From the IMG/VR virus record IMGVR_UViG_2645727636_000004, positions 12,925 through 76,924 of that record: a stretch of 64,000 bases of DNA, one strand, 5' to 3'. This DNA comes from a virus (lineage: Duplodnaviria; Heunggongvirae; Uroviricota; Caudoviricetes). Position 1 is the stretch's first letter, and each line of letters begins with the position of its first letter. The notes beneath the pieces were generated by a model. It was not told the DNA's origin, did no database searches, and saw only the letters and a program-made list of their open reading frames with translations. Shown piece after piece: positions 45,144 through 62,910 of the stretch. The position numbers and the translations under genes were made by a program.

Positions 45144-45947
45144 TTATTTTCTTTTATTATTATATCTGACATGTTTCTCCTTAATTTTTATAATTTTACA
45201 TGAATTACAATATTGATTTTTGTAGTTAGTGTTTCTAATTAAATTTCCACACTCAATACACTTTTTCACCTTCTTGCTTCCATAATAGTACTCATAAGCT
45301 AATCCAATATTGTCAAAGTCATTTACCTCAAATATAGTTTCCTCATCTTCCTCAATTTGATTTAAAAACAACAACTCTAAAGATAGTCGATTAGTAGTAC
45401 GAGTCAATCCATCATCATTAAATTGCTTAATTGTTCTATGTATTCCTTTTTCACGATATGTACGAGTTAGTTTTTCATTTAAAGTATCCATCAATGACTT
45501 ATAACTATATTCTCCAGAACCACCAAAATAGTTATTTTTAGAATCAATGCCTCGCATTTTTGCTCTAGCATTATTTAATTTGTTGATTATTAGCAATGAG
45601 AAAATAATCTTCTTTTCTAATTCTTCATATTTTAATGACTCAATAAATTCCATTTCTTTTTTCGTCACTTCAATTGATTCAATTTGAATTAATACACTGT
45701 CATCCTTTAAAGCATAAGTAATCGCATTATCAATCATCTTGTAATGCCTAACCTTATTGAACCAACCTTTACATTTCTTCTCACAAAACTCATACAGTGA
45801 TTTCTCGATAGCGTCTTTATCTTGACCAAGATGTTTGTAATACTTAGCTAAAGTTTTTAAATCACCTCTAATTCCAGTGTCTAATTTGTTCTTTTTCAAT
45901 AACTCTTCTATGTATTCTTTTTCTTTATAGTATTTATTCATACCCAT
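45144..45947 (-). CDS. RNAP-coupled hypothetical protein with C-terminal Zn ribbon
   Basis: Start overlaps RNAP stop; CIECG...YCNSC. Confidence 0.6.
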   Translation of the reverse strand: MGMNKYYKEKEYIEELLKKNKLDTGIRGDLKTLAKYYKHLGQDKDAIEKSLYEFCEKKCKGWFNKVRHYKMIDNAITYALKDDSVLIQIESIEVTKKEMEFIESLKYEELEKKIIFSLLIINKLNNARAKMRGIDSKNNYFGGSGEYSYKSLMDTLNEKLTRTYREKGIHRTIKQFNDDGLTRTTNRLSLELLFLNQIEEDEETIFEVNDFDNIGLAYEYYYGSKKVKKCIECGNLIRNTNYKNQYCNSCKIIKIKEKHVRYNNKRK

Positions 45948-48721
45948 TAAAACAATTCCACCTTTCTAACAGTATATTTTTTATTCAAATATTCAATTTC
46001 ACCATCTTCATCTTGGATAGGGAGGTATAAATAATCTTTATTACTTTTTAAATTATCAACAATCTCATCACCAAACAGTGACCACATTATATCTTTATTT
46101 GACGTTTTGTTATCAACACAGATCATATGAATCACGTAATTCATTAATTCTTTCTCGTTGTTACATACTCCAAGCAACTCAACCTTTAATCTTTCTCGAA
46201 CAATATTAATATCTTGTGCGACACTTTCATCATAGGTAGTTTTAACACTAACTTGTGTATTATTCATTTCATTTCTAATCATAGAGTTGAATTCTGAATA
46301 TTTCTTTTTCACTTTCTTATATGTATCTTGGTTAAACTTAATATCTTTATTCATGAACGATTCATAGTCATCAAACCATTCGTCGAGTTTCAGTAGTTTC
46401 TTTATTTCGAAATCAACCGACTCGATACGTTTGCAAATTTTATTCATTACACAATCAGATTCAATTACTGGTGATTTACGATAAAATTCATCTATGAAGT
46501 TTAATTGTTCGTCATTCATACGTTTAACGCTCTTTAGTTCAGTTAGGGTTATTCCTAATCGCTGTAATGATAAAATTTCATATTTCTTCACATGATCTTT
46601 GTATTTCTTTTTTGTATTACTGTATAGATGCATAAAGAAATAAGGGTGTTTATCAAGTAAAATCCTATTATTCAACTCTCGTTCATATCGTTCTTGTTCG
46701 GTTTCATCTTTAATGGGCAGTTGGTATTTTACCCATTTAGGGACTATACCTTTAACTTCTTGTCCAATTTTAGTTTTATCAATTTGAGCCGATTGAGCCT
46801 TAGTAATTGACTTGATTCTCCTAAGAGTGACTTTATACTCCTCAGATTCAGGAGATAGATTAGCTAGTAACGCATATCCAGAAGTTGATTTATTAGTTAG
46901 TCCTCCAATAATACTATTAAAACTAAATGTATCGGCATTATACAAATCGTTCTCAGTAGGAATCACCTTAGATGGTTTAGGTGCTTCATACACAACTGGT
47001 AATTCTTTACGATAAACTCCTTTGATTACTGATTTATCAGATGTAGTAGCGATGATATCATAATCAAAATCACTTCCTGCAAAACGATCAGTTTCATTGC
47101 CATGAGCATTTAAAATAATCCCACTGTAACAATATTTATACCACTTTTCGGTATCATCATTCTTAATTAGTTTCAGCAACACATGCTCACTACGATAGGT
47201 GAGGGGGCTGCGACTTGCTACAACTTCTTCGATGTTGAGATTATTCCAATAGTTACTGTAGTGTTCATCTTCGGCAAGCAAACCTTTCACTTCTTTTCCA
47301 CACACTGCCTCCATCATAGCAAAAGGGTCAGATACAATAACCTGAAAGTTACCATCAACAATTATTTGACCAATAGAAGCATTCTGAATCTTCTTTTTGA
47401 GCATATTATAAATTTTGTTTCTTATGTATTTATCTTTTATTAGCTTAGGTTCAACAATTAAAGCTTTAATCCAACTAGCGTTTTTACTGTTTAGGAACTG
47501 ATTAAATTTTTCTTCATTTGCATTCATTCCTACAAGAAATAGCATTGTGTAATACACATTCTCAGAAGTAACACCTTTGATCCACTTCACAAATTTATCT
47601 GTAATAGTAGCTACATCATTATCATCTAAGTTCAGTGTCTGTAAGAATTGATAATTTTGATAGAAGAATGTTTTATCATATTTAGGGGCATATATACTAA
47701 TGCCCCATGACATATTATTCTCCACACAACATTGACGGTAATGGTCAACAGAAGACCAACTATCCCACAATTTTAGCTGAGATTCGGTGATTATTACATC
47801 TACACATCTTAAATCAACCAACATTGGATTATCGCTATCGTCCTTATAAATAGACTCTATTATATAATTACCTTCATTAAATTCTTCAACCCATTCATGT
47901 ATATCAAATACAGTAAGCATTCCTTTGAGAAAACTGCCCCTAATGCAGAATTGTGATGGGATATAGTCAATTTCTAATTCCTTAGCCCATTTCTCAGCTT
48001 GTTTAGGAGATATCAATCCTTGACCATCGAAACGATTAAACATCTTTGTAATGGATTTTTCTTCAATTTCATCATCTTCGCTGTAATCTGTTTCAGTTAC
48101 AAAGTTGACATTGAATGAAGTTGGACTTTCAAAATCCTTCACTACACAGAAGTTAGGTGTAGTTACTTTATATCTAGAGCTACCATATAAGCCTCTGTAA
48201 GCATTTAATTTAGCAGGAGCAATAGGAACGATTTTATTCCTACCATTGTCAGTACGATACCTTAATTCATCAAATACAGTTTCTGCAATAAATAGGACAG
48301 TATTAACTCTTGCTTGAGAAGCACTGGAATTGAATCGTTTATATTTAACGCCATTAATTAGTACCCCTTTACTATATAATCTCTTGTATTGTGTTTTGTT
48401 GCTCATCTCGATAGTTATGTATTCTGGAACGTAAATTAACTCATTTAATTTTAGTTGTAAATCTTGAAGTTTCTCACCATTACCATCGTCACTGGTCGAA
48501 TTCTTCAATTTATGTATTTCTTTTTCTAAATATTTAAGCCTATTAACATCAATATGACGCTTAGTGATATCTAGAATCGTATCAATTAATTGATTCTCAA
48601 ATACCGCAATTAATTCTTTATTATCGATAGCCTCATCAATGTTAATACTAATATCATAGTTAAACTTTTTTAATCTATCTGATTCGAATTTCATTGTTAA
48701 GTATTGTATTTGTTTACGCAA
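45947..48721 (-). CDS. yonO: YonO-type single-subunit (two-barrel, RdRP-like) DNA-dependent RNA polymerase
   Basis: RFDGQG, FCIRGSFLKGML, RSPLT, GSDFDYD catalytic loop; same position as SPbeta yonO; start probably TTG/GTG. Confidence 0.9.
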   Translation of the reverse strand: MRKQIQYLTMKFESDRLKKFNYDISINIDEAIDNKELIAVFENQLIDTILDITKRHIDVNRLKYLEKEIHKLKNSTSDDGNGEKLQDLQLKLNELIYVPEYITIEMSNKTQYKRLYSKGVLINGVKYKRFNSSASQARVNTVLFIAETVFDELRYRTDNGRNKIVPIAPAKLNAYRGLYGSSRYKVTTPNFCVVKDFESPTSFNVNFVTETDYSEDDEIEEKSITKMFNRFDGQGLISPKQAEKWAKELEIDYIPSQFCIRGSFLKGMLTVFDIHEWVEEFNEGNYIIESIYKDDSDNPMLVDLRCVDVIITESQLKLWDSWSSVDHYRQCCVENNMSWGISIYAPKYDKTFFYQNYQFLQTLNLDDNDVATITDKFVKWIKGVTSENVYYTMLFLVGMNANEEKFNQFLNSKNASWIKALIVEPKLIKDKYIRNKIYNMLKKKIQNASIGQIIVDGNFQVIVSDPFAMMEAVCGKEVKGLLAEDEHYSNYWNNLNIEEVVASRSPLTYRSEHVLLKLIKNDDTEKWYKYCYSGIILNAHGNETDRFAGSDFDYDIIATTSDKSVIKGVYRKELPVVYEAPKPSKVIPTENDLYNADTFSFNSIIGGLTNKSTSGYALLANLSPESEEYKVTLRRIKSITKAQSAQIDKTKIGQEVKGIVPKWVKYQLPIKDETEQERYERELNNRILLDKHPYFFMHLYSNTKKKYKDHVKKYEILSLQRLGITLTELKSVKRMNDEQLNFIDEFYRKSPVIESDCVMNKICKRIESVDFEIKKLLKLDEWFDDYESFMNKDIKFNQDTYKKVKKKYSEFNSMIRNEMNNTQVSVKTTYDESVAQDINIVRERLKVELLGVCNNEKELMNYVIHMICVDNKTSNKDIMWSLFGDEIVDNLKSNKDYLYLPIQDEDGEIEYLNKKYTVRKVELF

Positions 48722-58591: not shown

Positions 58592-58667
58592 AATTATTTA
58601 CCATCCTTTTTGTATTTTATTATTTTAATAGTAGGAAAAGAGGGAAGAAATTCCCTCCAATATTTAA

Positions 58668-59765
58668 TTAAGCAATTCGTACTGGTAAAATTAATTGCAT
58701 AGCTTTATTGTCATTAGATAGTGCAATAAATGGACGCATAGAACCAGTGAATTTAAATTGTGTATTTTCTTCATTAATTGCTTTTACTGCTTCATTTAAA
58801 TAAATAGCACTCATAGCAATTTTTAAATCTTCTCCAGTTTTTTCACCTTCGATATTTGCAGTCATTAATCCACTTTCAAAGCTTTCCGCTAACATTTCAA
58901 TTTTACCGTTTAACTGCATTTTTACGGCATGATTATGATCATCTTTGGCAATAGTTTTTAACATGTCAATTGACTCGACTAGTTGACTACTATTAATAAT
59001 TGCTTCTGTTCTAAAATCTTCTGGAATTAAGCGACTAAAATCTGGATAGTTACCTTCAATATTTTTAATGCATAGCTCCACATTGTCAAACTGAACTATT
59101 GTAAAATCTTGATTAAATCCAATTTCAATACTTTCAGTTTTCTTATTTAACATCTTTACAGATTTTTCAAGTGTTTTACCGTCAATAACTGTATCAATGT
59201 TATCTAATTGACTAGGCACTGTATAACGTCCTAATCTGTGCGAGTCAGTCGCTACAAAGTCGATATGGTTATAGTTGTCTGTACGTACACATACACCTTT
59301 TAAAACTGGTCTTGATTCGCTTTTAGCTACTGCAAAAGTTGTATTGTTAATCATGCGTCTATACTCGTTGACGTCCATTGTCATACGCTCATATTCAAGG
59401 CTAGGTAGTAAAGGATATTTGTTTGCATCTGTAAACATTAATTTATAATCAATGTTACTTGCTTTTATATTTGCCTTATTATCTACTAGCATATCAATTT
59501 CAATATCAAGTGCCTTTGATTTCTTTAAAAAGTCATTCAACTTCTTATATTCTAATACCAGTGATCCACTTGTTTCTGTTTGTAACGTATCGATCACTAC
59601 ACTTGCCATTGCATCTTGATTTCCTGCAATTAGTTGTAACGTGTTATTTTCTGTTGTTGTAATTTTTACACCAGATAGGATAGGTAGTTTTGTTTTACTG
59701 TCAATAAAATGTCCTAGCTTTTTAAGACCTTCTAATAATTCGATGCGATTAATTGTTGTTTTCAT
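58668..59765 (-). CDS. dnaN: DNA polymerase III beta sliding clamp
   Basis: LPILSGVKI, SESRPVLKGV, VATDSHRL, EGNYPDFSRLIP, LILPVRI. Confidence 0.93.
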   Translation of the reverse strand: MKTTINRIELLEGLKKLGHFIDSKTKLPILSGVKITTTENNTLQLIAGNQDAMASVVIDTLQTETSGSLVLEYKKLNDFLKKSKALDIEIDMLVDNKANIKASNIDYKLMFTDANKYPLLPSLEYERMTMDVNEYRRMINNTTFAVAKSESRPVLKGVCVRTDNYNHIDFVATDSHRLGRYTVPSQLDNIDTVIDGKTLEKSVKMLNKKTESIEIGFNQDFTIVQFDNVELCIKNIEGNYPDFSRLIPEDFRTEAIINSSQLVESIDMLKTIAKDDHNHAVKMQLNGKIEMLAESFESGLMTANIEGEKTGEDLKIAMSAIYLNEAVKAINEENTQFKFTGSMRPFIALSNDNKAMQLILPVRIA

Positions 59766-59880
59766 AATTAATATTCTCCTTTTGTTTATGTATTTTATTA
59801 TCTAATTTATTGTAGTCTAAATTCGGAATAAATACAAATTATTTTATGTATTTATTTATATAATATTTACTATTATGAAA

Positions 59881-60093
59881 TTAGACAGCTTTGTACCCAT
59901 TAATATAATGATTTGCATAATCCCACTTGTTTGTATCATAGTTAATTTCTAACGTTAATACTAAGCCATTTTCAAAAACTAAATCATGTTCATAGCTTTC
60001 ATGTGATTTTTCTTCTTTTTTAAGTTTTGCACCAATTTCTCTATTGCTTAATTCTAAATAGGCAGGTATTGACTTATAATTAATTTTTCTCAT
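59881..60093 (-). CDS. Small hypothetical protein
   Basis: GGAG RBS. Confidence 0.55.
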   Translation of the reverse strand: MRKINYKSIPAYLELSNREIGAKLKKEEKSHESYEHDLVFENGLVLTLEINYDTNKWDYANHYINGYKAV

Positions 60094-60146
60094 TTCTTAT
60101 ATTCTCCAATCTTTTTATTTTATAAAATACTGTTTTTAATTAAAGT

Positions 60147-60317
60147 TTATTTGTTTTTAAATCTTTCAATACTTTCAATCATTCGTTTTTCGTTCGCTTC
60201 TTTGTGTATATCATTCCACCTACACAATAAATTCCATGTAGTTTCAACCTCTGAATTTAAACCATTAAAACCATCCATAATTGAAAGTAATTCGCTTTGT
60301 TTTATTTCTATATTCAT
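60147..60317 (-). CDS. 56-aa hypothetical protein (not in ORF track)
   Basis: GGAG RBS; MNIEIKQSELL...IERFKNK; makes the + strand track ORF 60151..60339 redundant. Confidence 0.55.
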   Translation of the reverse strand: MNIEIKQSELLSIMDGFNGLNSEVETTWNLLCRWNDIHKEANEKRMIESIERFKNK

Positions 60318-60365
60318 TCTCCATACACCCTTTACTTGATTATTTTTATAAAATAGTATTTTTAA

Positions 60366-60839
60366 TTAAACTGCAGCACTAATTTTTCGTTCAGCTGTTG
60401 ATAAGATGCATTTAATATTGTTGATAGTTAAAGCCCAATTGCGAGCTAAAAGCTTGTTTCGCTTGTCAGTTAGCTTGTCATTAAGTTTTACCATTGCATC
60501 TGATAATAACTGTTTTACACTAGTTAATTGTTGTGTAGCTTGCTGATAATCTTCTTTAGCAGCTGATACCACACTAGAAGCTAATTCTTTAAAATATGAT
60601 ACAAGTTGTACTGTTGTTGAATTTTCAATTTCTAATTCATTGTTTTGTGTATTTTCTACTTTAACTTCTAACTTAGCTAATTCAGTGTAGTGATCTGTCA
60701 ACATTGTAATAATTTCACCTTTATGCATTTTGCGTTTTTCTTCACGGTTATACCATGCTAAACCTTCTTTATTTGCTGCTTCCTGCAACTCTTTAGCTTT
60801 CATAGTAGATAATACGCTGATTTTGTTTTGTAATTTCAT
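60366..60839 (-). CDS. Protein with Rho N-terminal-like (HeH) domain
   Basis: LSTMKAKELQEAANKEGL...KMHKGEIITML matches the Rho_N pattern; helical C-terminus. Confidence 0.6.
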   Translation of the reverse strand: MKLQNKISVLSTMKAKELQEAANKEGLAWYNREEKRKMHKGEIITMLTDHYTELAKLEVKVENTQNNELEIENSTTVQLVSYFKELASSVVSAAKEDYQQATQQLTSVKQLLSDAMVKLNDKLTDKRNKLLARNWALTINNIKCILSTAERKISAAV

Positions 60840-60875
60840 TTTAATTCTCTCCTAAGTGTATATGTATTTTGTGTT

Positions 60876-60940
60876 GCAACCTCCCTCAAGAAGAGGGAAC
60901 GCTCACAGCTTAATGCCTGTTTATACTCGCTGTGACGAGT
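60876..60940 (-). ncRNA. Pistol self-cleaving ribozyme
   Basis: P1 ACUCG/CGAGU; loop UCACAG pairs with CUGUGA; linker AUAAACAG; P2 GCA/UGC; UUAAG; GCG; P3 UUCCCUC/GAGGGAG; G^U site at 60880/60879. Confidence 0.88.
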
Positions 60941-60948
60941 TCGTTTGA

Positions 60949-61566
60949 CTATACGAATTTAATATTTAAAATCTGTTCTATTTCATTTAAAGAATTTCTT
61001 CCTAAATTTCTAACTTTCATCATTTCATCAAGAGTAGCATTTTTTACTTGTTGTACTGTGTTATATCCAGCACGTTTTAAACAGTTGAAAGAACGAATGG
61101 ATAATTCTAATACTTCAATTCCTTGGTTATTATCATTGTTTTGACTGATAATATTGATATACAAAGACATAAATTTATTTTCTAATTTTAAATTACGGTT
61201 TTCCTGTTCTTCTTTAGATAGATAGCCTACATGCCCATAATATTCAAAATCAGAAGCTTTAATAATAGCAACTAATTCATTTTGTACATACTCTTCTTTA
61301 GATGAAATTCGAGCAATTGTATCTTGAATTAATTCGCTGATACGTTTGGTATTGTCTGTGTCTACAAACTCACGAACAGCGAAGTATTCAACTTCTTCAT
61401 TTACTGGATTGAATGTTACGATAGTAGCGATAAATGAACGATCATATATAGTTTGACCGTACGAGTTGTGCTCTCTCGACGTGAAATCTACAGCCGATTG
61501 GATAGAATTTTTAAAACCCTTAGACGTAACAACCATAATATTTTCAGCAACATTAAATTTTTTCAT
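60949..61566 (-). CDS. Protein with C-terminal RNA polymerase alpha-CTD domain
   Basis: [25 protein letters not shown]...[15 protein letters not shown] closely matches the Bacillus RpoA CTD; N-terminal ~145 aa not RpoA-like. Confidence 0.85.
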
Positions 61567-61589
61567 TATATTTTCCTCCTATTAAGTAA

Positions 61590-61688
61590 GTACTTTATAA
61601 AATTACCTATGCTCGTGTCATCGCTACTTTGTTGCTTTGTACGCTCACTCGTTAGAGGTCTTGGCGACTAGGTGACTTTATAAAGTAC
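61590..61688 (-). ncRNA. Long hairpin enclosing a GC-rich structured core in the 5' leader
   Basis: ~20-bp stem GUACUUUAUAAAGUCACCUA/UAGGUAAUUUUAUAAAGUAC around a ~59-nt core. Confidence 0.55.
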
Positions 61689-61799
61689 TTATTTTTATGT
61701 ATTTTGTTATTTAAAGTGCAAGTCTTTCATAACTTAATTTCAAGTCTTAATTTTAATATTACTTGGAAGTAAGTTATTTTGTATTTCTTAACTGTCCTT

Positions 61800-61845
61800 A
61801 TATTACCATGTATAGATTATATTCGTCAATGGATTTTATGTATTT
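61800..61845 (-). promoter_or_regulatory. Strong sigA-type early promoter with upstream AAATACATAA box
   Basis: TTGACG-18-TAATAT with TG extension; box 6 nt upstream of -35. Confidence 0.7.
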
Positions 61846-62910
61846 TATTATTTAATTTTTATTGATCTGTTCAAAACGTTGATATTACAGTGTTTATTAG
61901 AAGCATAACATAAATTATTTTGAGTTTCTTCCTATTAAATGAGTAAAACTCAAAATGTGATCTTTACAAAAACAGCAAATGAGAACAAATATTTGCATAT
62001 GTGTTGGATCACATTCATATTCACAGGAATCAATTTAGATATTTAATCTTTCCTCAAATTTCAGAATAAAAATCTCTAATATATAACAGAAAGTGAAAAA
62101 TATCGCCACGACTTTTCCAGAAATCTCAAATGAAAAATTCATAATTAATAACAGCGTGCGGAGAATAGAGCTGAAATTTTTTCATGAATATATTTTGCTA
62201 GTGGTTTATCAAAAGTGGAAAGTTGATTTTAACATTGAGTTATTGGTGGTTGATGTACTTGTATGAACATAAGGAGGTTTAGAGGTAGTCGCATGTTACA
62301 TCTAATAAATTTCAATTTAGTGCAAATCTTGATGACTAATGTGAATTGAATAGGCTAAATAGTTAATTTCTACATTAATAAGAAGAGATTCATTAAGTTC
62401 TCTCTTTAAGAAATAAATAATAGGCAGCACCAGAGAAGTATTTACAGCCTCTTCGGATCATTTAAAGCTGTAAGTGTAGATTCAACGGAAGATGATTCGC
62501 CAACCTCTCTCTAATAAGAAACACGATTTTAAACCAATAAATAAGCAAAAATGGATGAAAAGTTAAAATTAAGTAGATTATTTTTAAAAAACACTTGTAT
62601 CTTACTTATAAGATATATATAATTTACTTATAGCTTACTTGTAAGTTAAATTTCTGAAAGAACTTAAAAGTATTGATGCACAAGAGTTTAATGAAGTTTA
62701 TTTGAAATAACCTAACAAAATTGCTGGTCTGTGAGTAGCTGATTTAACGAAGTAGATAACTAAAAAACACATATCACCCATTAATTAGTTATTGTTATTT
62801 CGAATGGAATATGAAAAATAATCCAATTTTCAGTTATACAAGTTAAGTTGATGTGATATACTTAAGAGGGGAAAATAAAATAACAAAATAAATAAAAAGG
62901 AGAACGGAAA

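What the first reader, a model, noticed from the sequence alone, without database searches (positions are those of the whole stretch)
58668..61845. Early operon led by mimics of host transcription machinery (alpha-CTD, Rho-N)
The first gene after the strongest promoter ends in an RpoA CTD that keeps equivalents of E. coli R265, N268, G296 and S299 (K298 is N), the UP-element contact surface. The next gene starts with a Rho-N-like domain and dnaN follows. Inference: a takeover module that titrates activators/NusA or occupies UP elements, possibly the AAATACATAA boxes at the UP position of phage promoters.
Basis: partly seen in the sequence, partly recalled or inferred. Interest (0 to 1): 0.7.

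Follow-up and report, generated by a model that had tools for sequence, protein, structure and literature searches.

The report
Prophage early gene carrying captured RpoA tail
A Lysinibacillus prophage gene placed right behind a host-type promoter encodes a small protein ending in a real copy of the DNA-reading tail of the host RNA polymerase alpha subunit. It probably interferes with host transcription, but such free copies are already labelled in other phages, none has been tested, and the "Rho mimic" next to it is not supported.

Summary
The window lies in a 141-kb SPbeta-like Lysinibacillus prophage.

**What holds**
- The residue claims hold. R265, N268, N294, G296, S299 and E302 equivalents are kept.
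- K298 is N here and is never K in 14 family members, although it is K in 28 of 28 Firmicute RpoAs.
- dnaN is genuine.

**What does not hold**
- "Rho-N" is only a motif-level resemblance: no Pfam hit, and hhalign probability 8%.
- Gene A is not a fixed operon leader. Most relatives start the operon with gene B.
- The AAATACATAA boxes occur in relatives that lack gene A at this locus and are rarely at the UP-element position. The proposed link to gene A is therefore not supported.

**What gene A is**
Gene A sits in an insertable cassette: its own sigma-A promoter, a covarying roughly 105-nt leader RNA absent from Rfam, gene A, then a pistol ribozyme. Its N-domain is a tiny new family (13 clusters in 1.8 billion proteins) that also exists without the CTD.

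**Likely function**
It is most likely a free alpha-CTD that competes with host RNA polymerase for UP-element DNA or for its partners. This is inferred, not shown.

This scan has met orphan alpha-CTD genes on other DNA several times.

The parts
61800..61829 (-). Sigma-A-type promoter of the operon: TTGACG, 18-nt spacer, TG-extended TAATAT
   Evidence: Promoter scan, 9 of 12 with TG and sequence. The homologous promoter is TTGACT-17-TAATAT in L007 and TTGACG-17/18-TAAGAT in L004 and L136.
61836..61845 (-). Exact AAATACATAA box 6 nt upstream of the -35 hexamer. A second exact box lies at 61695-61704 in the transcribed leader.
   Evidence: The box-promoter-box layout recurs in L004, L006 and L136.
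61587..61691 (-). Structured 5' leader RNA of gene A: a closing stem of about 20 bp around a conserved multibranch core. Not in Rfam.
   Evidence: MFE -31.8 kcal/mol, z -4.18. Five copies (window, L007, L008, L135, L136), one per genome and always before gene A. Nine of 42 pairs show compensatory changes. No Rfam match at E<=1.
61126..61566 (-). Gene A, N-terminal domain (residues 1-147): alpha/beta core plus a long helix; a new small family
   Evidence: AF2 model, pLDDT 82.5. No Pfam, PHROG, PADLOC or PDB sequence hit. Thirteen clusters at E<=0.001 (11 at E<=1e-10) in 1.84e9 proteins, several of them stand-alone proteins of 134-153 aa. Only BFVD match: SP-10 gp049.
60949..61125 (-). Gene A, linker and RpoA alpha-CTD (residues 148-205 plus stop)
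60875..60940 (-). Pistol self-cleaving ribozyme between gene A and gene B
   Evidence: RF02679, 77.4 bits against a gathering score of 34.5, E 2.6e-13. The same element sits in the same place in L007 and L136.
60366..60839 (-). Gene B (157 aa): N-terminal helix-extension-helix-like motif plus a helical bundle. It is the usual first gene of this operon in relatives.
   Evidence: 47 close clusters, all Lysinibacillus. AF2 model, pLDDT 84.6. No fold or family match. First gene in L004 and L006.
60147..60317 (-). Small ORF, 56 aa, no known family
59881..60093 (-). Small ORF, 70 aa, no known family
58668..59765 (-). Phage dnaN (DNA polymerase III beta sliding clamp), preceded by two exact boxes (59853, 59795)
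   Evidence: Three Pfam clamp domains. phrog_947, E 1e-54. TIGR00663, 213 bits, above cut-off.
58643..58658 (-). The only terminator-like hairpin with a T-run in 56-64 kb, 10 nt after the dnaN stop
   Evidence: sequence.

Best explanation
Gene A is an accessory gene of an SPbeta-like Lysinibacillus prophage, probably expressed early. Its product joins a phage-specific N-terminal domain of unknown fold, through a short Asn/Asp-rich linker, to a captured copy of the host RNA polymerase alpha C-terminal domain. I think it most likely acts in trans as a free alpha-CTD. It would compete with the polymerase's own alpha-CTDs for A/T-rich UP-element DNA, and secondarily for proteins that dock on alpha-CTD. 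That would lower UP- and activator-dependent host transcription, for example at rRNA promoters. Phage promoters with extended -10 elements, and the phage's own YonO-like polymerase, would carry on. The outcome would resemble that of Staphylococcus phage G1 gp67 or T4 ADP-ribosylation of alpha R265, reached by mimicry rather than by modifying the polymerase. Shown: the domain identity, the kept DNA-contact residues, the promoter-proximal position and the cassette structure. Inferred: early timing, DNA binding, competition and the effect on the host.
For: 1. The domain is a true alpha-CTD of Firmicute type.
2. Across 14 family members from Lysinibacillus prophages, Bacillus phage Goe8 and metagenomic phages, R265, N294, G296, S299 and E302 equivalents are invariant and N268 is kept in 12 of 14. 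The sigma-contact positions 259/261 and the Spx-contact aromatic (B. subtilis Y263) drift. This pattern favours DNA contact as the conserved activity.
3. Gene A always lies directly after its own sigma-A-type promoter, here TG-extended. gp67-encoding phages are reported to use extended -10 promoters to escape loss of the alpha-CTD/UP contact (PMC3694059).
4. Its neighbours are early-type: small unknown genes in the first 2.6 kb of the annotated Goe8 record, and ArdA in L135.
5. The prophage has a YonO-like single-subunit polymerase (924 aa, phrog_8308 E 7e-146, DFDYD motif). In SPbeta this polymerase transcribes the late genes (PMC5467207) and has no alpha subunit.
6. Alpha-CTD recurs in other orphan proteins fused to DNA-binding HTH or sigma region 4 modules.
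Against: There are no expression, binding or phenotype data. K298, a DNA-backbone contact in E. coli alpha-CTD (my own knowledge), is K in 28 of 28 RpoAs but never K in the 14 family members (N8, R3, T2, S1). DNA affinity may therefore be weak or altered. The invariant residues are also partly structural, so their conservation does not prove DNA binding. Eight clusters, one of them a likely fragment, have the N-domain without any CTD, so the N-domain has an activity of its own that this model does not explain. Gene A is rare (11 clusters at 90% identity against 47 for gene B) and dispensable in close relatives. The oligomeric state is unknown.
Confidence: 0.38

Rival explanations
1. Gene A is a phage-directed DNA-binding regulator or architectural factor. 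The alpha-CTD serves only as a portable minor-groove A/T-reading head, and the N-domain supplies oligomerisation or an effector surface. The protein would act on phage DNA (promoters, boxes or origin) rather than on host transcription.
For: The DNA-contact residues are conserved. Other orphan alpha-CTDs are fused to sequence-specific HTH and sigma region 4 domains. The phage genome is 70% A+T with many A/T-rich upstream regions and boxes. dnaN and replication-type genes lie downstream.
Against: The boxes occur in relatives without gene A at this locus and are seldom in one fixed promoter position, so they are not its dedicated site. No repeat or operator specific to genomes that carry gene A was found. 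K298 is lost.
Confidence: 0.25
2. Gene A is a protein decoy. The free alpha-CTD soaks up host regulators that dock on alpha-CTD, above all Spx (and paralogues) or response regulators, and so disarms a host stress or defence programme during induction.
For: In the window protein, seven of the nine B. subtilis alpha-CTD positions that contact Spx (E254, L256, L258, V260, R261, Y263, N264, K267, R268; PMC8501982) are identical and two are conservatively replaced (V to I, Y to F). The best structural match is the Spx-bound CTD 1z3e_B.
Against: In more distant family members the Y263 equivalent is T, K, L or S, and the K267 equivalent is L, Q or N, so this surface is not conserved family-wide. The Spx and DNA surfaces overlap, so conservation cannot separate the two roles.
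Confidence: 0.15
3. Gene A is a polymerase adaptor. The N-domain docks on host RNA polymerase or on the phage YonO-like polymerase and adds an extra DNA-reading alpha-CTD, steering that enzyme to A/T-rich phage promoters.
For: It is an open question whether YonO needs extra factors to find promoters (PMC5467207). A YonO-like gene lies about 12 kb downstream on the same strand. The stand-alone N-domain proteins could be polymerase binders without the DNA head.
Against: Gene A is absent from SPbeta-type relatives that also have the operon. It is present in Goe8, a Herelleviridae phage; I did not check Goe8 for a YonO homologue. No fold or sequence link ties the N-domain to any polymerase-binding protein.
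Confidence: 0.1

Closest known systems
C-terminal domain of the bacterial RNA polymerase alpha subunit (Pfam PF03118; B. subtilis RpoA 245-311, PDB 1Z3E/3GFK; E. coli RpoA 249-329)
   Different: There is no alpha N-terminal (assembly) domain, so it cannot be a polymerase subunit. K298 is replaced. The 259/261 sigma-contact positions are not conserved. The domain ends right after the last helix.
Goe8_c00050 of Bacillus phage vB_BmeM-Goe8 (annotated 'RNA polymerase subunit alpha') and gp049 of Bacillus phage SP-10
   Same: Goe8_c00050 is a full-length homologue (46% identity, 100% coverage). SP-10 gp049 is the N-domain alone (36% over residues 1-136). Both lie among small early-type genes.
   Different: Both come from virulent Herelleviridae rather than an SPbeta-like prophage. 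They have no conserved leader RNA and no pistol ribozyme. Neither has been characterised.
Staphylococcus phage G1 gp67 (PMC3694059) and T4 ADP-ribosylation of alpha R265
   Same: These are early phage functions that remove the alpha-CTD/UP-element contact and so shut down rRNA-type promoters. The proposed outcome for gene A is the same, and its promoter also has an extended -10 element.
   Different: gp67 binds sigma region 4, and the T4 enzymes modify alpha. Neither contains an alpha-CTD. Gene A would act by mimicry. There is no sequence or fold relation, and the function of gene A is untested.
Other orphan alpha-CTD proteins of phages and mobile elements (P0070-P0109; Mycobacterium phage Mithril and 'uncultured Caudovirales' entries in BFVD)
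   Same: They carry free alpha-CTD domains outside RpoA, keep R265, N294, G296 and E302, and often lose K298 (7 of 11).
   Different: Their partner domains differ (Cro/C1 HTH, sigma region 4, tandem CTD, unknown). The N-domain of gene A is a separate, very small family.
Rho N-terminal helix-extension-helix domain (Pfam PF07498)
   Same: Gene B residues 8-44 align with the Rho_N motif (Mx2ELx3A...GL...MxKxEII) with a 5-residue insertion. The model shows helix, extended segment, helix.
   Different: It is below every statistical threshold (hhalign probability 7.9%). There is no Rho RNA-binding or ATPase part. It resembles a generic small nucleic-acid or partner-binding motif and gives no evidence of Rho mimicry.
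SPBRE boxes bound by the master repressor MrpR in SPbeta (PMC10516654)
   Same: A short repeated word lies in many intergenic regions of an SPbeta-like prophage, flanking early promoters including this one.
   Different: There are 35 exact copies here, all on one strand, many just before ribosome-binding sites and some inside genes. SPbeta has about ten MrpR peaks. I did not test which protein binds them.

Membership tests
RNA_pol_A_CTD domain (PF03118) | Profile score above the curated cut-off | tested here: met
   72.5 bits against 23.8, E 2.3e-20, residues 143-201.
RNA_pol_A_CTD domain (PF03118) | Alpha-CTD fold (compact helical bundle with helix-hairpin-helix motifs) | tested here: met
RNA_pol_A_CTD domain (PF03118) | UP-element DNA-contact residues (E. 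coli R265, N268, N294, G296, K298, S299, E302) | tested here: inconclusive
   Six of seven are kept. K298 is N here and never K in 14 family members. Actual DNA binding cannot be tested with these tools.
RNA polymerase alpha subunit (RpoA, TIGR02027) | N-terminal assembly domain (PF01000/PF01193) and full-length score above cut-off | tested here: not met
   Only the CTD part matches: TIGR02027 scores 51 bits against 227.8, and there are no NTD Pfam hits. Gene A is not an RpoA.
Rho_N / helix-extension-helix domain (PF07498), for gene B | Profile score above the curated cut-off | tested here: not met
   No hit at E<=1 for the window protein. One of 17 relatives hits at E 0.04. No six-frame hit in the prophage at E<=10, while controls ring.
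Rho_N / helix-extension-helix domain (PF07498), for gene B | Profile-profile or fold similarity to Rho N-domains | tested here: inconclusive
   hhalign aligns residues 8-44 to Rho_N 2-33 at 31% identity, but with probability 7.9%. The model has helix 15-24, an extended stretch and helix 40 onward. The fold search is dominated by the helical bundle.
DNA polymerase III beta clamp (DnaN, TIGR00663) | Three clamp domains and full-length score above cut-off | tested here: met
   PF00712, PF02767 and PF02768 each at E about 1e-19 to 1e-21. TIGR00663 scores 213.4 bits against 137.65.
Pistol ribozyme (RF02679) | Covariance-model score above the gathering score over the full model | tested here: met
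   77.4 bits against 34.5, model positions 1-68 of 68.
UP element (the proposed role of the AAATACATAA boxes) | Fixed position about -60 to -38 upstream of sigma-A promoters | tested here: not met
   Only 4 of 35 exact boxes are followed within 15 nt by a -35/-10 pair scoring at least 9 of 12. Ten lie within 45 nt of a ribosome-binding site plus start codon, and several lie inside genes.

The most novel reading that the evidence does not exclude
The stretch from the promoter to the ribozyme (about 61830..60875) is a self-contained, insertable 'transcription-hijack' cassette. It comprises a TG-extended sigma-A promoter, a new class of structured leader RNA that controls or processes the message, a free alpha-CTD protein that disables UP-dependent host transcription, and a pistol ribozyme. 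The ribozyme would cut the cassette off the downstream mRNA so that gene B regains a 5' UTR of about 40 nt, like the one it has in relatives without the insert. If true, this would give a first tested function for orphan alpha-CTD proteins and a concrete biological role for a pistol ribozyme as an insulator of an inserted gene.
Probability: 0.15. Interest if true: 0.8.

Novelty: new variant of a known kind. Interest (0 to 1): 0.55.

Why it matters
Phages are known to attack the alpha-CTD/UP-element contact of host RNA polymerase, as G1 gp67 and T4 ADP-ribosylation of R265 do. No phage protein that copies the alpha-CTD itself has been characterised. I found none in four full-text searches on this point. 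Free alpha-CTD genes are nevertheless labelled in many phage genomes, and this scan keeps meeting them.

This locus is a tractable example. The protein is small, and its host is a cultivable relative of Bacillus. Natural controls exist: close prophages carry the same promoter and gene B but lack gene A. A clear mutational test is available at R158, the R265 equivalent. The cassette also offers a natural setting for a pistol ribozyme, and an uncatalogued leader RNA with covariation support.

Tried and rejected
- **Gene B.** No PDB sequence hit, no Foldseek hit at E<=0.001, and no tblastn hit in 50,697 phage records.
- **Family libraries.** PHROGs and PADLOC gave nothing for gene A, gene B or the two small ORFs.
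- **Related loci.** The search for related loci with the N-domain profile found no relative in GTDB species genomes or IMG/VR.
- **Leader RNA in public collections.**
  - A 14-mer scan of genome contigs returned only chance matches in unrelated GC-rich genomes.
  - A 22-base core pattern in metagenomes gave two chance matches.
  - The same 22-base core pattern and a longer exact stretch found nothing in viral contigs.
- **Split or paralogous forms.** SP-10 gp050, the ORF after the stand-alone N-domain, is not an alpha-CTD. The 205-aa and 211-aa neighbours of gene A in L135 and L008 are not paralogues.
- **Searches that could not run.** Absence of gene A from those genomes therefore rests on the locus itself and on the contig lengths listed for the gene A clusters.
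Full report
**Setting.** The window is bases 12925-76924 of a 140.9-kb provirus record. Homologues of its genes carry Lysinibacillus names. Nearly all genes run on the minus strand. A 924-aa gene at 48721..45947 is a YonO-type single-subunit polymerase: phrog_8308 at E 7e-146, tblastn hits annotated as RdRP-like polymerases, and a DFDYD motif at residue 551. This fits the 'SPbeta-like prophage' label in earlier notes of this scan. The finding covers the first 3.2 kb of the minus-strand transcription unit. That unit starts after a 1.3-kb gene-free region which is divergent from a conserved 109-aa gene on the plus strand.

**Anatomy, 5' to 3' on the minus strand.**
1. An exact AAATACATAA box at 61845..61836.
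2. A sigma-A-like promoter at 61829..61800: TTGACG, 18 nt, TG-extended TAATAT.
3. A second exact box at 61704..61695.
4. A structured leader at 61691..61587.
5. Gene A at 61566..60949 (205 aa), with an AGGAGG ribosome-binding site 7 nt before the ATG.
6. A pistol ribozyme at 60940..60875 (RF02679, 77.4 bits, E 2.6e-13).
7. A one-mismatch box and ribosome-binding site, then gene B at 60839..60366 (157 aa).
8. Two small ORFs of 56 and 70 aa with no family match.
9. Two exact boxes, then dnaN at 59765..58668.
10. The only terminator-like hairpin in 56-64 kb, at 58658..58643.

**The alpha-CTD observation is correct.**
- Residues 143-201 of gene A match PF03118 at E 2.3e-20.
- phmmer aligns residues 149-198 without gaps to the B. 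subtilis RpoA CTD (1z3e_B, E 1.9e-15), with 32 of 50 residues identical.
- NCBIfam RpoA models match only their CTD part and fall far below their cut-offs. There is no alpha N-terminal domain. Gene A is therefore not a polymerase subunit but a protein carrying a captured CTD.
R265, N268, G296 and S299 are kept, and K298 is N.

**What the family conserves.** I compared 14 family members with 28 Firmicute RpoAs.

| Position (E. coli numbering) | Gene A family (14) | Firmicute RpoA (28) |
|---|---|---|
| R265, N294, G296, S299, E302 | invariant | invariant |
| N268 | kept in 12 | N in 28 |
| K298 | never K (N8, R3, T2, S1) | K in 28 |
| 259/261 (sigma region 4 contact in E. coli, my knowledge) | variable | always E or D |
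| B. subtilis Y263 equivalent (key Spx contact, PMC8501982) | F or Y in 10; T, K, L or S in the rest | F or Y |

- Selection in this family therefore looks strongest on the minor-groove-reading face, minus one backbone contact. It is weaker on the protein-contact faces.
- Other orphan alpha-CTD proteins picked up by the CTD search show the same habit. All 11 keep R265, N294, G296 and E302, and 7 lack K298.
- Several of these orphans are fused to Cro/C1 HTH or sigma region 4 domains, or carry tandem CTDs.

**The N-terminal domain.**
- Residues 1-147 are predicted as helix, beta-hairpin, helix, strand, then a 30-residue helix that runs into an Asn/Asp-rich linker.
- They match nothing in Pfam, PHROGs, PADLOC, NCBIfam or PDB sequences. 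Fold searches were swamped by the CTD, so the fold question stays open.
- An exhaustive profile search of 1.84 billion cluster representatives found 13 clusters at E<=0.001, 11 of them at E<=1e-10. The weakest (P0069, 2281 aa, E 4e-5, a 30-residue match) is probably spurious.
- Four clusters are fusions with a CTD, and eight are 134-153-aa proteins with the N-domain alone, one of them a likely fragment.
- SP-10 gp049 is such a stand-alone form, and Goe8_c00050 is a full-length fusion.
- The N-domain therefore has a function of its own. The CTD looks like a later addition; the direction of that change is an inference.

**Gene A is a movable cassette and not a fixed operon leader.**
- Gene B has 47 close clusters against 11 for gene A.
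- In L004 and L006, Lysinibacillus chromosomes of about 5 Mb, the same box / TTGACG / TAAGAT / box promoter drives gene B directly. There is no gene A, no ribozyme and no dnaN.
- In L007 and L136 the layout matches the window: leader, gene A, pistol, gene B.
- In L008 and L135 the leader plus gene A sit elsewhere among early-type genes, without a pistol. In L135 gene A lies just before an ArdA anti-restriction gene.
- In the distant homologues (L009, L010, Goe8) gene A again follows its own near-consensus sigma-A promoter, but the leader is absent.
- The constant feature is that the gene sits directly behind a host-type promoter. This supports early expression by the host polymerase, although no expression data exist.

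**The leader RNA.**
- The 105 nt before gene A fold into a closing stem of about 20 bp around a multibranch core (MFE -31.8 kcal/mol, z -4.18 against shuffles).
- The leader occurs once per genome and always before gene A, in five Lysinibacillus prophages.
- It is 92% identical among the window, L007 and L008, whose gene A proteins are 89% and 73% identical to the window's.
- In the two more divergent copies the stem sequence is replaced while pairing is kept. Nine of 42 predicted pairs show compensatory double changes, in the closing stem and in one inner hairpin, on an alignment made from sequence alone.
- Several G-U pairs argue for RNA on the sense strand rather than a DNA palindrome.
- The core blocks (AGUCGCCAAGAC, GAGCGUACAA, AAAGUAGCGA, GAGCAUA) are almost invariant.
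- Rfam has no match at E<=1.
- With five copies, and most of the signal coming from one of them, this is a good candidate and not yet a proven motif.
- A long perfect stem next to the ribosome-binding site suggests RNase III processing or an autoregulatory operator. Both ideas are speculation.

**The pistol ribozyme.** It is present only where gene A directly precedes gene B (window, L007, L136). Its 3' end abuts the box and ribosome-binding site of gene B. In relatives without the insert, gene B has a 5' UTR of roughly 50 nt counted from the promoter. Cleavage would give gene B a similarly short leader. An insulating role for the ribozyme is my inference.

**'Rho-N' is not supported.**
- The first 50 residues of gene B carry the pattern M-x2-EL-x3-A...GL...M-x-K-x-EII, which recalls Rho_N.
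- Pfam gives no hit at E<=1 for the window protein. One weak hit (E 0.04) appears among 17 relatives. A six-frame search of the prophage finds nothing at E<=10.
- hhalign against three Rho N-domains taken from genomes aligns residues 8-44 as expected, but with probability 7.9%.
- The model shows helix, extended stretch, helix, followed by a three-helix bundle, with no fold match.
- The most that can be said is 'possibly a helix-extension-helix motif'. Nothing indicates mimicry of Rho.

**The boxes.**
- AAATACATAA occurs 35 times exactly, always on the minus strand. Allowing one mismatch gives 82 matches against 30 expected. The wider consensus is about 22-24 nt.
- Only 4 boxes are followed within 15 nt by a good -35/-10 pair. 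Ten lie within 45 nt of a ribosome-binding site and start codon, and several lie inside genes.
- They are equally present and co-oriented in L004 and L006, which lack gene A at the locus.
- SPbeta offers a tested precedent for such repeats as sites of the integrase-fold repressor MrpR (PMC10516654).
I did not test what does bind them.

**Mechanism.**
- *Preferred reading, about 0.4.* The product acts as a free alpha-CTD that competes for UP-element DNA and, secondarily, for alpha-CTD partners. This would blunt UP- and activator-dependent host transcription. Phage promoters with extended -10 elements and the YonO-like polymerase would be spared. It parallels what G1 gp67 achieves by another route, and gp67 phages also use extended -10 promoters to escape (PMC3694059). 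The weak points are the loss of K298, the unexplained N-domain and the absence of any experiment.
- *Rivals.* A phage-directed DNA-binding factor (0.25), a decoy for Spx-type regulators (0.15) and an adaptor that adds a DNA head to a polymerase (0.1).
- *On the Spx decoy.* In the window protein seven of the nine Spx-contact positions are identical and two are conservatively replaced. They drift in distant members.
- *On NusA.* Titration of NusA is unlikely, because the alpha-CTD contact uses the AR2 repeat that Firmicute NusA lacks. This is my own knowledge and was not tested.

**Novelty.**
- Free alpha-CTD genes are already labelled in phage records, for example Goe8 and the BFVD entries, and in one phage genome paper (PMC9127768).
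- I found no functional study in four full-text searches on this point.
- This scan has met orphan alpha-CTD genes in at least 18 other genomes, one of them with its own conserved promoter and leader.
- What is new here is the N-domain family, the family-wide conservation pattern, the cassette structure, and the leader RNA together with the pistol ribozyme.
- I rate it a new variant of a known kind, with moderate interest.

Noticed in passing
window 61587-61691 (minus); L007 5873-5982, L008 5871-5980, L136 5871-5982, L135 5875-5981: An uncatalogued structured leader RNA lies before gene A. It has a closing stem of about 20 bp and an almost invariant core. Nine of 42 pairs are compensatory, and it occurs once per genome. 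Rfam has no hit.
   Followed up: partly
window 60875-60940; L007 6627-6694; L136 6627-6693: The pistol ribozyme is present only where gene A directly precedes gene B. It is absent from relatives lacking gene A (L004, L006) and from loci where gene A has other neighbours (L008, L135). Its 3' end abuts gene B's box and ribosome-binding site, which suggests it insulates gene B from the inserted cassette.
   Followed up: partly
window 61940-62585: About 650 bp of the 1.3-kb gene-free divergent region has no counterpart in the equivalent regions of L004, L006, L007 or L136. It includes a locally GC-richer stretch around 62440-62530. It could be an insertion, a small RNA or a gene remnant.
   Followed up: no
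window 62585-62653: A conserved block in the divergent control region matches L136 in both orientations, so it is an inverted repeat built from ACAAGTAAG / TATAAGTAAG words. It is a possible operator of the switch region.
   Followed up: no
window 45947-48721 (minus): A 924-aa YonO-type single-subunit RNA polymerase: phrog_8308 at E 7e-146, 51% identity to Bacillus phage BUCT082, and a DFDYD motif at residue 551. It lies about 12 kb downstream on the same strand.
   Followed up: partly
window, minus strand: 60860-60869, 59786-59795, 59844-59853, 58608-58617 and others: Exact or one-mismatch boxes sit immediately before the ribosome-binding sites of gene B, dnaN and the gene after dnaN, always in the sense orientation. 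An RNA-level role (the word contains UACAU) is as open as a DNA-level one.
   Followed up: no
L135 6734-7270; L134 1605-2621: In one relative gene A is followed by an ArdA anti-restriction gene. In another it is followed, after a 110-aa gene, by a 338-aa Phage_integrase-family gene that could be an MrpR-like repressor.
   Followed up: no
proteins P0070, P0092, P0107, P0109: Other orphan alpha-CTD architectures exist in metagenomes: tandem CTD, Cro/C1 HTH plus CTD, CTD plus sigma-70 region 4, and sigma region 4/HTH plus CTD.
   Followed up: partly
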